Shown here in pieces: positions 3,536-63,500 of a stretch of 64,000 nt of DNA; the first letter of the stretch is position 1, and each line of letters begins with the position of its first letter. The DNA comes from Ophelia neglecta (lineage: Eukaryota), in NCBI GenBank assembly GCA_965285935.1, contig OZ260664.1, positions 54,932,001 to 54,996,000 of the forward strand, given 5' to 3'. A program made the position numbers.

Positions 3536-6500
3536 TTACGAATTAATTAATTTTCCTAAAATGAATAACAGAACATTTTTGATAAAGTTAGTTACTAGGT
3601 ATAATATTATAAAATATTATTATGGTTAAAGTTCTAAATGCTGACTGACCTGGTCTGAGGCAGGCCATACTTGACGCCTACTCCTACTCGCGGTAAGGCG
3701 TTGACTACCTTCTTGACGGTGGCATGATCGGGGAAGGCAAACATAACGGCAGCTAAAAACAATTATTTAATCTATAAAAACAGAAGTAGTGCATGTAGCA
3801 GAGGCTTTTCTATTACACCTCTTTCTGTTATTACAGTTAGTTATTACAGTTAGATAAAATATTATGACCATTCAACTGTTATATGAAGATGCCTGATCAA
3901 AGAATATCAAAATGACAACTAAATTCCATTGAAGTAATAAAATCATGCCATTGATATGAATTAACAAGAGGAATATAGTTAAAATAGTCAGTAACTTGTA
4001 GAAAAGATGCTGGCTTCTAACATTTGCTGATGTCAAACACTACTGGCAGTAGTAACTGCCACTATACAGAAAATCCTTTCGCCAGGTGGCGGTACTTACT
4101 TCTGCTGGCCATGAAGATTTCCACGCCAACATTTTGAAGAAGATATCGCCGAGTGAAGATTGCACGGATCTCATTGAAATGCCATTTGCCATGGAGATGG
4201 TCAATATACTGCAACACCTGGAAGAAAACAATAACAAATGAAACGATTTTATAATTATCCTGCAATTCACGTGTTGATTCACACAGTTTATTACGCTGGA
4301 CTAGGCCCAACGGATATAATAGTCAGTCAAAGTGGCAAGCAATTTCACAAAACATATGGGTCAGAAAAGGGAAGATTCAAAACACTCAAATTCAGACTTC
4401 ATCTCAGACGTGTTCACTTTTCGACTAATATATATCGGTAAACTTTTCAGTAAAATTTCATAGCAAAATCTGGTCCTGGTATACATTTTTGGCCAGCTCG
4501 CTCAAAGCTATGTCGAGTAGAGGCCTTCCGATGAGAATATGAACCCCACATCGCGAGTGCATTGAGTAACTTATCTGTTTCTACCTGATCAATCTTTTTC
4601 CCTGCCATGCAAAAGAATTCAGAAGCATGCTGAACATACCCAACATGAAATAGGCTTGGTGATACCAACAAACGGAATATATTTGGGAAAATATGGAGCG
4701 TAGAACTCAGCAGCTCCACTTCTGAATTAGTTATGTAGCTTATTGTAATGTCGGGAAAAAAACAATTATTTGATTCAACTTAATGCCTTATTTGCCTGTT
4801 TTATACAAGACACTTGCCGGTTGGTGTTTGTCCGTCAATCTAACTTTCACACGAGTAGTTTATCTATCACTGACTTCATCTATCGTATGATTTATGGCCA
4901 AGATGTTTGCAATTGTGAGACAATCGTGGTGAAAGTTACACCAATTTGTCTGACATTAACAGATGTGTTACTGCAGGCTTGTCAACAAAAGAAGGCGAAA
5001 CTTCTGTATATGCTAATGAAGAAAATGTGGACCCGACTGAAAATGGGAATAACTGACACATTTGTTAGTAATAATCACCAACTACATTATATTTAGGTTG
5101 GCTCCTAAAACAAAGAAGTCTTTATTGATATTTGAGATGAAAGATGCATGTTCAGAATATTTTTTTTGCAATTGATAAATGACGCAATAATGGTAGATTT
5201 TCTGAGATTTGTTAGAGATGCGTTGACACATGGAGGTCTTGAGGAACAATTACTGCCCCAGGCCACGGCTAGGAAGTACACGGGCTGGGGAGTTCCGTAG
5301 TGGCCTGTACCATCAGGGTGACGGCCTCTAGATGTTCTGCCGGCGACATCGACGATATACATGTAGGCTTATACGGAGAAGTGAAACCGATAATCTTGTA
5401 AGGCATCAATCGAATTTTTAAGAAGTACTTAAAATTTAAATAGGTAAGGACCAGATGATCGCTGTTTTATGGATATCTTGCTGCCTCGAAGGAATTTCAA
5501 ATGTTCATATGAGAGCCTTACAACCTATTTCGACCTCAATCAACAATTTCCCACGTGGCTAAATGAATAAATGGTTGTGCGGCACACGCTGTACCATACA
5601 GAATACAAAATGTACAACATGGCGTACCGGTATGTCGGAATAGTCCGCAATGTAACTGGATTTTGATTTTTTTGGGTGGGGACGGGCGAGGGAGGGGGGG
5701 GGGGTTAACAACGAAGCACCACGTGGGTAATTTTGGTGTCTTTAGTGCACACGCAGGGTGCACCAGTCAATGTTACTGGAGGATTATGCCTACACTTAGG
5801 GATACATCTGACATTGGGAAATACAAATGTAGGACTTTCAAGATTCCCGAGATAAAGAAAAGTTAACTTCATTCAATGCATGGGCAATATTTCAATTATT
5901 TTTTTTAAATATAAACGAATGAGTGTAAAGTTATATGCAATGTAGGCCCAAGAGTATAGGCCTATACGATGGTGCACACTGTCTGGTATTTACAATCATA
6001 ATTTGGGTTGAATATGGCAAAAGCTGGATCTGTGTGCATGCAAATAAAGGAGCTATACGCAGGCGCATAGGAGTACATGTATATAAGCTCAAATACCTAA
6101 TAAGTGATGTATTTAGTATTTTCAAATCGGAGATCCGCCCTTCTCTGGCAGTGTATACCTTAGTCGTAGCTATAACACTATATAAGTCTAGTATATATAC
6201 CTACATGTCACACCTTTATTACAGGTGCTTATTTCGGCACGGGTAATTGACTTTTAAACATGTTTTATTTACCAACTAATGTCGAACATTAATATTAATA
6301 GCAGAATAATTTCAGCTAAATTCACACACAAGAGTAACCTCCACCTACTAACTCGACTGATTGCCACATGAACCACCATATAATTATACATAGCCTCGCT
6401 ACACACCATTTGATGAGAAAGTACGAAAGATCCTAAGAGTTTGACAGTAGAGGTTAAGGGCTTAGCTTTAACAGCCTTTAGCCTAACATATATACAGGTC

Positions 6501-60500: not shown

Positions 60501-63500
60501 AATTACTAGTCCACTATGATTTGCATGGTATTAATTATGTGATTATCTAACCCAGCTAACGAGAGGAGTGAGAAACAGTCTGTCTAATTGTTTAATCTGA
60601 ATAGACAAAAGGCAAGACAACAACAAATGATAACTCTACAGCATGTAAATCTGTGGTTTGAATATCATAGTTTGATGAACACCAGAAGGTGTCTTATTTG
60701 TATGAATCCATCACCAACAGCCACTACAATGGTGACAGAGCCCTGCAATCTGGCAGACTCTGAAGGCATGCAGGGCCCTCAAGAGTTTAACTAATAGGAG
60801 GCCCTGTCAGAGATTGGATCTTTTTCAGTAATTCTTAGATCACCATGAATTTTAAATGCATGTATATTTAAATAGATACATGCCTTTGTCTAGTAATAAA
60901 CAAATTTACTATAAAAAAATCAAATGTCTGAATTCAATACACTGGGACTGTTTGTCTCCTTTGGACTGGTGCCTTAATTTTCAATTCAACTACAGATATC
61001 GTTTTGTAATGTATAACACACGTGTGATTGTCAGTAGCTGTATCATGTCACAGAGATTATAACCCAGACAATACATTGAAACTGACAATCTGCTTTAAGA
61101 ATAAAACAATGCATAGTTTTATCTGTATGATTTATTCTTAATGCATCTTAAAACTCATCCACTCGTCTACTACTATCAATGGTGGCACCCTCTGGCGAAT
61201 ATGTTGCTTTCTATCTGGTTGATGCTACTACTTCAGAATCCTCCCTATAGCTACTACTTCAGAATCCTTCCTGAACTACTAACAGCTTTTGAGTTGGCTC
61301 AGGGTACAGAACACAAGATTCTTTTCAAGCTTAGGCCATGTCAAGTTAATCAGTTCTAGGCATTTTTTTTCTCTCAAGAAAGTGAGGTGAGAGGCTTTTT
61401 CATTTCTCTTAAGGTCAAAAAACAGGTCATCCTTAGTTATTATTTATTTTACACCAGTATCATTAGGTGAGAGCACAGGGTTTTTTCTTTTTTGGCCCAT
61501 GAATTATATAGTGAGGGTTGGAGGAATTTCTTGTTCCACACAAACTATTTTGAGGGGGCTGGTTTTTCTTTTTTGCACAAAGAATACATGGAAATGCTCA
61601 AGCAGATCAAAATAATCGTGTAGTTAGTATTAATAATTTCCCTTTAAGTTGCCATATCCAGTTGGATTGCCTGAAGGCATTTATGACTGTCATATGAAAC
61701 TCTTTATTTTGACATTAACCAGGAAAGTCATCATGCCATTTATTAAATGACTAACACCCAGTTGTCCTTAGAAAAGTAAGAGTAGGTGGTTACACCAAGT
61801 CTGGTGCAGGAAGCGGGCAATATTTTCTACTGTTTGATTTTTATTTGCCCAACCTGGGTCATGCGGATTATTTTTGTTTACACTTTCTTAAGCTGATGAG
61901 GCAGTGGGTGATTTTTTTTAAGCAAAATCATTATAAAAAATATTTCAGTGGCAATTGTGGAAGGAGGCGGGCGCTGCCTGAGTATCAATTTATTAATTTT
62001 AGACAGCCTTAAATAATTATTTGTATATGTCAAGAACCTGCCAAGTATCAAATACTTGAAGACAAACACAGTTATACAGGTCATTATTTGACCAGTGTTT
62101 CACACTGTCGGGACATGATACAGTTTAACACAGTATATAATGTACCTCTGGCTAGGGGGTCACCTTTCTTTTAATTTTTAACATCTGCCTACCACTATGA
62201 CTGAACAAAGAATTTTTTCAAACAGCATATCAACACTAATAATCAAAAGGTGGTGTAAATATCAACAAGTAAGATGTTATACATCTTTTTTTCCTTTAAT
62301 TGTGTTTGATACGAGATGATATATTAATTGTATTATGCAGTCAAAAATATAAAGTAATTCCCCATTACCCTGCGTAAGATATAAAAACCCTACCTTTCTT
62401 AAGGAAAATAAACCTACCTTTGGATCTATTTTCTTATTTTGTTCGTCATCTTCGTCCATTTCGAAGTACATTTCTGTTTTGGTGATGGACATGGTGCCGA
62501 TGACCACGGCTCCGGGAGCTATAAGTTTGGCTGAGGTTGACAGAGCCACAGGGCCGGCTGTAACAGAACATCAATAGTCACATCATTTATAACCTAGTGA
62601 AAGCTTAGCAAGGCATGTTTCTGCTAAGTGTCCTTTGGTAATTTCTTGTTACATGTATTTCTTATATATATTACATTATATAGGGTACATAGGATATTTT
62701 GCATATTTACATGTATGACTTGAAACAACTCCAAAGGTGAACTGGTTCAGGGTGACTTAGATCTATGGTAAGATTTGTTTCTCGTTATGATTCAATGTCA
62801 TTTTATTTTGTGATTTAGTACTATAATAGTGAAAAATAAGGAAGCCCAAAGACATTTTTGAAGACATAAACTCAGAGGAAAGGAGTAAACAAAACAAGTA
62901 GATATCACTAGTAGATCTAGAGTCAGGGTCAGTCACAAGGCTCAGTGCCATTTTCTCTCCCCATTTTGCTACAGAGGGTTTAAAACATGTTTTTTCTATT
63001 GTGCCTGGAATAAACATTACAATCATGGTTTGGAATTATCATACTGCACAGAAAAAAACACAAGAAATTAAGAGAGTTACATAAAAACTAAAAAGGAGAG
63101 CCCCCTCCCCCTCATGTATGTGTGAGTTGCTAATCAAAATAAATGTGACATTAGCAAAATTGATTTATATGGCTGAGCTCTAGACTGAAAATAAACAAAC
63201 AGTGTGACTTGAGGACACAACACTTATAACTCTTTATAAGATACTACTTTACTTAACCATTTAATCAACCTAGTATTATTAAATAAGTGAAGCTACAGTG
63301 ATGACAAAAGCAAAAATTATATTTTTCACATGCAATAATAATATTAATTATTTCAGCATGCATACAAAACTTTCCTGTGTCCTTCTCTTGACCAACACCA
63401 ACTTTTCCGCCTAAAATATTTCAACGGCACATAAACTAACAAGGCAAGAATCACCCTCAATATAAACATGTGAACAGTAGTATACCTTGCCCTTAAAAAT

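What the first reader, a model, noticed from the sequence alone, without database searches (positions are those of the whole stretch)
4218..62417. mab-21 nested antisense in a 58-kb neurobeachin intron: an invertebrate copy of the vertebrate NBEA/LRBA-MAB21L arrangement, resembling a genomic regulatory block
Seen: the intron between KKIDPK and [12 protein letters not shown] is 58,200 bp, while the other nine introns here are 179-1358 bp. It holds a complete mab-21 gene on the opposite strand, with about 24 kb and 31 kb of non-coding DNA on either side and no recognisable transposon ORFs. Established: human MAB21L1 and MAB21L2 are nested antisense in introns of NBEA and LRBA, so the nesting itself is known. 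Inference: the intron is large because it carries long-range mab-21 enhancers, which lock the developmental gene into a bystander host.
Basis: partly seen in the sequence, partly recalled or inferred. Interest (0 to 1): 0.7.

Follow-up and report, generated by a model that had tools for sequence, protein, structure and literature searches.

The report
Mab-21 nested in neurobeachin's giant intron
An invertebrate neurobeachin gene carries the developmental gene mab-21 backwards inside one huge intron, an arrangement already described across animals; most of that intron has kept its CpG sites while the rest of the host gene has lost them.

Summary
A neurobeachin/LRBA-type gene on the minus strand has a 58,200-nt GT-AG intron (4218-62417). 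This is 186 times the median of its nine other introns here. A complete 359-aa, two-exon mab-21 gene lies antisense within it, with 24.5 kb and 31.7 kb of flanks. Of 258 ORFs of at least 60 aa, only the two mab-21 exons matched Pfam. No Rfam family, tRNA or dispersed repeat was found.

The exons on either side of the intron abut residue by residue in the solved human NBEA and LRBA PH-BEACH chains, so no coding exon is missing.

The arrangement is not new. Papers of 2007, 2009 and 2016 report mab-21 inside an NBEA/LRBA/sel-2 intron across metazoans, and MAB21L2 is a named vertebrate regulatory block.

The regulatory-block reading is plausible but could not be tested by conservation here. One new sequence signal supports it. 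About 54 kb of the intron keeps CpG (observed/expected 0.80), while the host's small introns (0.26) and the intron's first 3.9 kb (0.20) are depleted, with a sharp border near 58.4 kb.

Verdict: a known kind, modest interest.

The parts
63916..64000 (-). Host exon H1 (partial, runs off the window); ends in phase 1 before a GT donor at 63915-63914
   Evidence: Read. No Pfam match for its 28 aa.
62418..62557 (-). Host exon H2: first part of the BEACH-type PH domain, ending ...KKIDPK in phase 0
   Evidence: Its 46 aa match residues 1-46 of 1T77_A (LRBA) and 1MI1_A (NBEA). Pfam PH_BEACH positions 1-34, 25.6 bits, below the 27.5 cut-off.
4218..62417 (-). Giant host intron, 58,200 nt, GT..AG, phase 0, inside the PH_BEACH domain
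4100..4217 (-). Host exon H3: [12 protein letters not shown]...FMASR, second part of the PH domain
   Evidence: Residues 2-39 match chain residues 48-85 of 1MI1_A and 1T77_A. PH_BEACH positions 43-78, 42.6 bits.
3650..3752 (-). Host exon H4
   Evidence: Matches chain residues 87-119 of 1T77_A.
3242..3470 (-). Host exon H5: start of the BEACH domain
   Evidence: Matches chain residues 121-196. Pfam Beach positions 1-58, 97 bits.
510..2867 (-). Host exons H6-H11 (2727-2867, 2311-2430, 1960-2112, 1304-1471, 1007-1096, 510-693) with their small introns. H6-H10 encode the rest of the BEACH domain.
   Evidence: Pfam Beach positions 60-105, 106-145, 146-195, 197-251 and 254-276, in order. The last of these is below cut-off, and H11 has no match.
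28724..29217 (+). mab-21 exon 1 (ATG at 28724; ends in phase 2)
   Evidence: Pfam Mab-21, 70.4 bits. Matches 5EOG_A residues 5-167.
29218..30113 (+). mab-21 intron, 896 nt, GTGAGC...TTTCAG
30114..30699 (+). mab-21 exon 2 with the stop codon
   Evidence: Pfam Mab-21 81.6 bits and Mab-21_C 104.4 bits. Matches 5EOG_A residues 169-362.
4218..58500 (.). Block of the intron that keeps its CpG: 54.3 kb, GC 0.42, CpG observed/expected 0.80
58501..62417 (.). Part of the giant intron next to H2 that is CpG-depleted like ordinary host intron: 3.9 kb, GC 0.35, observed/expected 0.20 (24 CpG against 121 expected)
27526..28450 (.). CpG-island-like segment just upstream of the mab-21 ATG (GC 0.52, observed/expected 0.94); candidate promoter
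   Evidence: The promoter role is inferred.
14051..15975 (.). Three adjacent CpG-island-like segments (observed/expected 0.85-1.31), 13-15 kb upstream of mab-21; candidate regulatory region
   Evidence: The function is inferred.
56339..56378 (+). Four same-strand RGGTCA half-sites with spacers of 2, 5 and 4 nt, followed by CACGTG; candidate nuclear-receptor element
   Evidence: 0 of 300 simulated windows held such a quadruple and 3 of 300 a triple. I spotted the cluster by eye first, so the test is post hoc.

Best explanation
This is the ancient metazoan Mab21-Nbea/Lrba nested gene pair in an invertebrate, probably a spiralian. The host is a single ortholog of both NBEA and LRBA. It is transcribed on the minus strand through a 58.2-kb intron that splits its BEACH-type PH domain. 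mab-21, a conserved developmental gene, lies antisense near the middle of that intron, with its 5' side facing the host's BEACH-coding exons as in human and zebrafish.

Most of the intron (about 54 kb, 4.2-58.5 kb) is not ordinary host intron. It is richer in G+C, has no detectable transposon ORFs or dispersed repeats, and has kept its CpGs. The host's other introns, and the first 3.9 kb of this same intron, have lost theirs.

My reading is that this block is mab-21's own cis-regulatory and chromatin domain, holding its promoter and distal enhancers. I infer that it has been kept free of the germline gene-body methylation that marks the host. This would allow intragenic initiation and enhancer activity that such methylation otherwise suppresses.

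The nest would then persist for two reasons: the elements mab-21 needs are spread through the intron, and any break within the intron would also break the host.

Shown here: gene identities, completeness, exact intron borders, exon contiguity, the CpG and G+C domain, and the lack of transposon ORFs. Inferred: methylation status, enhancer content, and the cause of the nest's persistence.
For: Identity and anatomy:
- H2 matches residues 1-46 and H3 residues 48-85 of both 1MI1_A and 1T77_A. The Pfam PH_BEACH and Beach matches are in order across the exons.
- The mab-21 exons match 5EOG_A residues 5-167 and 169-362.
- Scores against NBEA and LRBA are nearly equal (48.0 and 51.1; 49.2 and 47.9; 132.5 and 133.1 bits), as expected for a gene that predates their duplication.

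Taxon:
- Over exon 2, the best match is 89.7% identical (unnamed P0001). Haliotis is 84.5% and vertebrates about 71%.
- In a 36-row tree built on exon-2 columns, the window falls in a clade (SH-aLRT 90) with an annelid, molluscs and unnamed rows.

Distinct block:
- A two-border likelihood model puts the core at 3251-58500, with 1960 CpG against 2467 expected (0.79). The flanks have 75 against 273 (0.27). The log-likelihood gain is 57.7.
- CG is the only one of 16 dinucleotides that shifts strongly, and TG and CA rise in the flanks. The lowest of 200 core windows of 5.5 kb is 0.67, against 0.22 for the right flank.
- The small host introns have 0.26 (24 CpG in 3,760 nt).
- All 22 CpG-island-like segments lie between 8 and 58 kb. 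One lies directly upstream of the mab-21 ATG.

No other content found: 2 of 258 ORFs match Pfam, with 0 Rfam families, 0 tRNAs and no dispersed or inverted repeat of at least 40 nt.

Literature, passages seen:
- Five conserved elements flank mouse Mab21l1 and Mab21l2, and four of them drive tissue-specific reporters. A human 113.5-kb deletion upstream of MAB21L2 inside LRBA removes 15 conserved elements and causes eye defects (PMC11511899).
- Gene-body methylation suppresses intragenic initiation and regulatory activity in Nematostella (PMC13345969).
- Methylated CpGs are lost by mutation, and invertebrate methylation concentrates on constantly transcribed genes (abstract starts in the listing).
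Against: - No comparison with a related genome was possible, so not one conserved non-coding element has been shown in this intron.
- Methylation is inferred from CpG loss alone.
- The left border of the block coincides with the intron's acceptor (small introns H3|H4 and H5|H6 have 2 CpG against 8.9 expected and 3 against 9.2). Only the right border lies inside the intron.
- The mab-21 intron itself is partly depleted (15 CpG, observed/expected 0.45).
- The nest is dispensable in some lineages. mab-21 moved out of sel-2 in Pristionchus, and it lies about 800 kb from the fly neurobeachin homolog.
- A CTCF-like border motif was not enriched (1 match against 0.46 expected).
- The half-site cluster was noticed before it was tested.
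- Unannotated non-coding RNAs, short exons or an internal host promoter could account for some of the CpG-rich islands.
Confidence: 0.6

Rival explanations
1. Passive entrapment. The nest persists only because any rearrangement with a breakpoint in the intron would destroy the essential host gene. The intron is long simply because it must hold a gene with its local promoter. Long-range enhancers in the intron play no part.
For: Across nematodes, host genes of antisense transcripts are generally conserved and have exceptionally long introns, giving large blocks of synteny (abstract of PMC4994411). mab-21 could leave the host in Pristionchus and in insects, so the linkage is not obligatory. No conserved element has been shown here.
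Against: A gene of about 2 kb with a proximal promoter does not need 56 kb of flank. The flanks lack transposon ORFs and dispersed repeats, so insertions do not obviously explain the size. The whole 54-kb block shares one CpG state, not just the gene. In vertebrates, enhancers in the host introns have been tested (PMC11511899).
Confidence: 0.22
2. The block holds further unrecognised transcription units, such as long non-coding RNAs, small-exon genes, or an internal promoter or alternative exons of the host. These, rather than mab-21 enhancers, would explain its size and its CpG-rich islands.
For: There are 22 CpG-island-like segments in the block. Those at 55976-56575 and 57851-58175, near the border, could be promoters. 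Exons under 60 aa and non-coding RNAs would escape my ORF and Rfam scans.
Against: Only 2 of 258 ORFs of at least 60 aa match Pfam, and both are mab-21. No Rfam family reached its gathering score. The host protein needs nothing between H2 and H3.
Confidence: 0.13
3. Functional coupling by antisense transcription. Host read-through and mab-21 transcription interfere with each other, and that mutual regulation keeps the pair together.
For: The two genes are strictly antisense and fully overlapping at the transcript level. Interference at nested genes is discussed for mammals (abstract start of PMC13309782 in the listing).
Against: In Pristionchus pacificus, expression of antisense transcripts and of their hosts is uncorrelated, and the loss of overlap in Pristionchus is described as showing that antisense transcription is not essential for either gene (PMC4994411). 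Disrupting an lrba-intronic element in Xenopus lowered mab21l2 but not lrba mRNA (PMC11511899). LRBA-deficient patient cells still express MAB21L2 (PMC11449124).
Confidence: 0.05

Closest known systems
Mab21-Lrba/Nbea conserved nested gene pair (Tsang, Shek, Lee and Chow 2009, Genomics 94:177, known here only through citing papers; Nikolaidis et al. 2007, PMC1784063)
   Same: A mab-21 ortholog lies wholly inside one intron of the NBEA/LRBA ortholog on the opposite strand. The guest's 5' side faces the host's PH-BEACH exons. The guest CDS has an intron, as reported for Ciona, sea urchin and ecdysozoans.
   Different: This copy comes from a lineage (spiralian-like by the tree) that the passages I could read do not name. 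Whether the host intron is exactly the vertebrate one is supported only indirectly.
sel-2/mab-21 locus of nematodes (PMC4994411)
   Same: mab-21 sits antisense in the largest intron of the neurobeachin homolog. Here the intron is 186 times the median of the other nine.
   Different: The nematode study reads the pair as an antisense-transcript locus with lineage-specific loss. I saw no CpG or methylation domain described in its passages.
Vertebrate MAB21L2 genomic regulatory block inside LRBA (Synorth, PMC2745767; PMC11511899)
   Same: A developmental target gene sits inside an unrelated trafficking gene with tens of kb of non-coding flank. In vertebrates those flanks hold tested enhancers and conserved elements.
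   Different: The vertebrate landscape extends well over 100 kb and across several host exons. Here a 54-kb block fits within one intron. Conservation and enhancer activity are untested here.
Mosaic invertebrate methylomes with gene-body methylation (abstract starts in the listing; PMC13345969)
   Same: The host's CpG-depleted introns, beside a block that keeps its CpG, look like the methylated and unmethylated compartments those papers describe.
   Different: Here the CpG-keeping compartment lies inside a transcribed, apparently methylated gene body. No passage or listing I read described that configuration. Searches were not exhaustive.

Membership tests
Mab21-Nbea/Lrba nested gene pair | The guest is an ortholog of mab-21/MAB21L1/2 (about 359 aa, Mab-21 and Mab-21_C domains) | tested here: met
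   Pfam matches. Gapless match to 5EOG_A residues 5-167 and 169-362. 391 homologs at E<=1e-20 among 527 candidates, and every one of the 120 listed carries both Pfam domains.
Mab21-Nbea/Lrba nested gene pair | The host is an NBEA/LRBA-type BEACH protein | tested here: met
   Exon-by-exon matches to 1MI1_A and 1T77_A. PH_BEACH and Beach profile positions are in order. Only the PH-BEACH part of the host lies in the window.
Mab21-Nbea/Lrba nested gene pair | The guest lies wholly within a single host intron, on the opposite strand | tested here: met
   Intron 4218-62417 on the minus strand; mab-21 at 28724-30699 on the plus strand. The flanking exons abut at chain residues 46 and 47.
Mab21-Nbea/Lrba nested gene pair | The host intron is the same one as in vertebrates | tested here: inconclusive
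   Indirect only. H3+H4+H5 total 450 nt and cover chain residues 47-196, which is 150 aa. [quoted passage not shown] Zebrafish lrba exon 40 was targeted with a guide that, by my own reading of the printed 20-mer, encodes EVFMAN, matching the end of H3. The exon numbers are in a figure that is not held, and no human exon table was consulted.
Genomic regulatory block | The target is a developmental regulatory gene | tested here: met
   By orthology to mab-21/MAB21L. The developmental roles come from the literature.
Genomic regulatory block | An array of highly conserved non-coding elements spans the block, including bystander introns | not testable with these tools
Genomic regulatory block | Synteny of target and bystander is kept over long evolutionary distance | tested here: met
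   This window adds one more lineage to the published cases. Published exceptions are D. melanogaster and some insects, and Pristionchus.
Genomic regulatory block | Elements in the bystander act on the target and not on the bystander | not testable with these tools
   Shown in Xenopus for element CE14. No data exist for this organism.
Germline-unmethylated domain within a mosaic methylome | CpG observed/expected near 1 beside CpG-depleted methylated gene bodies, with TG/CA excess in the depleted part | tested here: met
   0.80 against 0.22-0.37. TG and CA are 1.24-1.34 in the flanks and 1.10-1.13 in the core. The log-likelihood gain is 57.7.
Germline-unmethylated domain within a mosaic methylome | Directly measured absence of 5mC | not testable with these tools
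   This needs bisulfite, EM-seq or nanopore data.

The most novel reading that the evidence does not exclude
The nested mab-21 landscape is a roughly 54-kb, transposon-poor domain that has stayed free of germline methylation inside a transcribed, body-methylated host gene. It has a sharp border (58.25-58.5 kb) that lies inside the intron rather than at a splice site. If so, this invertebrate can exempt tens of kilobases of a transcribed gene body from transcription-coupled methylation. That exemption would be needed because gene-body methylation suppresses intragenic initiation and regulatory activity, and it would be what lets the ancient nest work. The locus would then be a natural model for how methylation borders are set within a transcription unit.
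Probability: 0.4. Interest if true: 0.55.

Novelty: already known. Interest (0 to 1): 0.3.

Why it matters
The nest is a textbook-grade example of deep microsynteny, and one more invertebrate copy adds little.

The compositional signal is the part worth keeping. A developmental gene's presumed regulatory domain can be delimited from raw sequence, with one border sharp to about 250 nt, because it escaped the CpG decay of its host. This gives a cheap way to map such domains in genomes that lack epigenomic data. It also gives a concrete locus for asking how gene-body methylation is kept out of a nested regulatory landscape.

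Tried and rejected
- Transposons: 258 ORFs of at least 60 aa inside the intron were scanned against Pfam. Of the 155 window ORFs of at least 72 aa, I passed 146 and dropped the 9 that overlap the host-exon regions. No reverse transcriptase, integrase or transposase family matched. Two matches were below cut-off (pKID, tRNA_SAD).
- RNA genes: no Rfam family at gathering score and no tRNA.
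- Repeats: 16 tandem-repeat rows, which reduce to a few short arrays. The direct-repeat families were two of those arrays plus one 40-nt pair at 73% identity that I take for chance. There were no inverted repeats.
- CTCF-like border motif: 1 match with one mismatch against 0.46 expected, so rejected.
- Retinoic-acid control of Mab21l2: the search listing gave nothing usable and I did not pursue it.
- A search for mab21 + lrba + microsynteny found 0 papers.
- Tsang et al. 2009 could not be read. Its content is cited only through other papers. Supplements were closed, so Fig. S10 of PMC1784063 is known only by its legend, and the exon numbers in Fig. 1C of PMC11511899 were not seen.
The taxon therefore stays at 'spiralian-like'.
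- The spliced models of both genes were searched exon by exon only. The joined proteins were never searched, folded or placed in a tree, and the tree uses the columns of mab-21 exon 2 alone.
- No conservation test of the intron was possible.
- The window is not human: mab-21 is about 71% identical to primate MAB21L1 over exon 2, and the host introns are tiny.
- Structure prediction, complex prediction, the atlas search and the representative search were not used because the families are clear.

Full report
**What is in the window**

The window has 64,000 bases and no N. On the minus strand lies the PH-BEACH part of a neurobeachin/LRBA-type gene. Reading the minus strand gives eleven exons with GT-AG borders:

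| Exon | Coordinates |
|---|---|
| H1 | 64000 (open) to 63916 |
| H2 | 62557-62418 |
| H3 | 4217-4100 |
| H4 | 3752-3650 |
| H5 | 3470-3242 |
| H6 | 2867-2727 |
| H7 | 2430-2311 |
| H8 | 2112-1960 |
| H9 | 1471-1304 |
| H10 | 1096-1007 |
| H11 | 693-510 |

The intron between them is 4218-62417, 58,200 nt, phase 0. The other nine introns are 1358, 347, 179, 374, 296, 198, 488, 207 and 313 nt. The large one is 186 times their median.

**Is the interval really one intron?**

I searched the model exon by exon. The joined proteins were never searched.

- H2 (46 aa) matches residues 1-46 of both 1T77_A (LRBA) and 1MI1_A (NBEA).
- H3 residues 2-39 match chain residues 48-85.
- H4 matches 87-119 and H5 matches 121-196.
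- In Pfam, H2 covers PH_BEACH positions 1-34 and H3 positions 43-78. H5 to H10 cover Beach positions 1-276 in order. Of the 11 exons given, 8 matched, two of them below the curated cut-off. H1, H4 and H11 gave nothing.

So nothing coding is missing between H2 and H3. The intron splits the BEACH-type PH domain. Optional cassette exons cannot be excluded without RNA data. Scores against NBEA and LRBA are nearly equal, as expected for a single gene that predates the vertebrate duplication.

**The guest gene**

mab-21 is on the plus strand: ATG at 28724, exon 1 to 29217, an 896-nt GT..AG intron in phase 2, exon 2 at 30114-30696, then a stop. That gives 359 aa.

- Exon 1 matches 5EOG_A (human MAB21L1) residues 5-167 and exon 2 matches 169-362, without gaps. 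The split codon supplies residue 168.
- Pfam finds Mab-21 in both exons and Mab-21_C in exon 2.
- The CDS lies 24,506 nt from the intron's low end and 31,718 nt from its high end.

**Which organism?**

A search with the exon-2 ORF found 391 proteins at E<=1e-20 among 527 candidates. Identity over exon 2 was:

- unnamed P0001: 89.7%
- Haliotis: 84.5%
- Octopus: 82%
- insects: 77-81%
- Ptychodera: 74.7%
- amphioxus and vertebrates: about 71%

A quick tree of 36 rows on exon-2 columns only places the window in a clade (SH-aLRT 90) with an annelid, molluscs and unnamed rows. It falls outside the well-supported mollusc clade. The source is therefore an invertebrate, probably a spiralian. It is not human. 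The look-up that might have named the closest proteins was switched off.

**What else is in the intron?**

- Of 258 ORFs of at least 60 aa (146 of at least 72 aa; 112 of 60-71 aa), only the two mab-21 exons pass a Pfam cut-off.
- No Rfam family and no tRNA was found.
- There are a few short tandem arrays. No dispersed or inverted repeat of at least 40 nt appears within the window.
- Without a repeat library, old or single-copy transposon remains cannot be excluded.

**A compositional domain**

CpG observed/expected is 0.45 and 0.26 in the two host-exon regions, but 0.76-0.78 across the intron.

- A two-border likelihood model puts the core at 3251-58500 (1960 CpG against 2467 expected, 0.79). 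The flanks have 75 against 273 (0.27). The log-likelihood gain is 57.7. The right border falls within 58250-58500.
- CG is the only dinucleotide that shifts strongly, and TG and CA rise in the flanks. The lowest of 200 core windows of 5.5 kb is 0.67, against 0.22 for the right flank.
- Looking at non-coding DNA alone, the small introns next to the large one are depleted: H3|H4 has 2 CpG against 8.9 expected, and H5|H6 has 3 against 9.2. The left border of the non-coding block is therefore really the acceptor of the giant intron. The model's 3251 is pulled leftward by CpG-rich coding exons.
- The first 3.9 kb of the giant intron (58501-62417) has 24 CpG against 121 expected (0.20, GC 0.35). That resembles ordinary host intron (0.26). 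The other 54.3 kb has 0.80 and GC 0.42.
- All 22 CpG-island-like segments lie between 8 and 58 kb, and one lies directly upstream of the mab-21 ATG.
- The centre of the modelled core (30.9 kb) is 1.2 kb from the centre of mab-21.

CpG loss is the usual footprint of germline methylation, and invertebrate methylation concentrates on constantly transcribed gene bodies (abstract starts in the listing). From this I infer that the host body is methylated and the block around mab-21 is not. This is an inference, not a measurement.

**Prior art**

The nest is published for invertebrates:

- Nikolaidis et al. 2007 (PMC1784063, legend of Fig. S10): the mab-21 family is in conserved synteny among all metazoans studied except D. 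melanogaster. It lies within NBEA or LRBA introns, and its CDS has introns in ecdysozoans, Ciona and sea urchin.
- Tsang et al. 2009 (Genomics 94:177) carries the nest in its title. It is not held. Citing papers say the host-nested organisation is kept throughout Metazoa except in some insects. They also report the assumption that the guest's regulatory elements are dispersed through the host locus.
- A study of 20 nematode genomes finds mab-21 in the largest sel-2 intron in all nematode clades, and moved out in Pristionchus (PMC4994411).
- Synorth names MAB21L2 among vertebrate regulatory blocks.
- A 2024 study shows that a 113.5-kb deletion inside LRBA, 19 kb upstream of MAB21L2, removes 15 conserved elements and causes eye defects. 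It also shows that disrupting one intronic element lowers mab21l2 but not lrba mRNA.

**Is the intron position the vertebrate one?**

This could be tested only indirectly.

- The human deletion takes four LRBA exons. [quoted passage not shown]
- Here the first three exons on mab-21's upstream side (H3-H5) total 450 nt and cover chain residues 47-196, which is also 150 aa.
- The guide printed for zebrafish lrba exon 40 reads EVFMAN in one frame by my own reading, matching the end of H3.
- Orientation also agrees: the guest's 5' side faces the host's BEACH exons.

All of this is consistent with the same intron but does not prove it.

**Mechanism and rivals**

I favour the reading that the 54-kb block is mab-21's own regulatory and chromatin domain, kept out of the host's gene-body methylation. 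Such methylation suppresses intragenic initiation and regulatory activity in a cnidarian (PMC13345969).

The rivals are passive entrapment by the host's integrity, unrecognised transcription units, and antisense coupling. Published escapes of mab-21 from the host argue against an absolute lock.

A CTCF-like motif is not enriched.

A cluster of four same-strand RGGTCA half-sites at 56339-56373, with an adjacent CACGTG, is unusual. None of 300 simulated windows held such a quadruple. I noticed the cluster before testing it.

**Verdict**

- The kind is already known.
- The CpG domain is a modest new point that would need methylome and conservation data.

Noticed in passing
window 58250-58500 (border); 4218-58500 against 58501-64000 and 1-4217: There is a sharp step in CpG observed/expected inside the giant intron, from about 0.87 to 0.11-0.22 within about 1 kb. 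The CpG-keeping block does not end at the splice donor but 3.9 kb inside the intron.
   Followed up: yes
window 56339-56378 (+): Four direct RGGTCA half-sites with spacers of 2, 5 and 4 nt, followed by CACGTG, lie inside a CpG-island-like segment (55976-56575). They look like a nuclear-receptor response element. 0 of 300 simulated windows had such a quadruple, but the test was post hoc.
   Followed up: partly
window 58020-58290: Just inside the border lies a CpG-rich stretch with a TGACGTC (CRE-like) site and several GCCAT-containing (YY1/Pho-like) sites, all read by eye. It could be a promoter or a border element.
   Followed up: no
window 32300-32487: A 37-nt unit is repeated about 5 times (87% matches), 1.6 kb downstream of the mab-21 stop. 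It may lie in or just past the 3' UTR. The first AATAAA sites are 901 and 1106 nt after the stop.
   Followed up: no
window 21254-21516: A CCTTCA-based array of about 260 nt with strong C-over-G skew lies 7 kb upstream of mab-21. It is the only sizeable low-complexity tract in the intron.
   Followed up: no
window 29218-30113: The mab-21 CDS has one phase-2 intron at the codon matching residue 168 of 5EOG_A. Vertebrate and Nematostella genes are reported to be intronless (legend in PMC1784063). This intron is also locally low in CpG (observed/expected 0.45, 15 CpG).
   Followed up: partly
window 62418-62557 (-): The crystallised human NBEA and LRBA PH-BEACH chains begin at the residue that matches the first whole codon of exon H2, so the constructs start almost exactly at this exon's border.
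   Followed up: no
window 694-1006 (-): The small host intron H10|H11 is the one small intron that is not CpG-depleted (8 CpG against 8.6 expected). The neighbouring small introns have 0.16-0.35.
   Followed up: no
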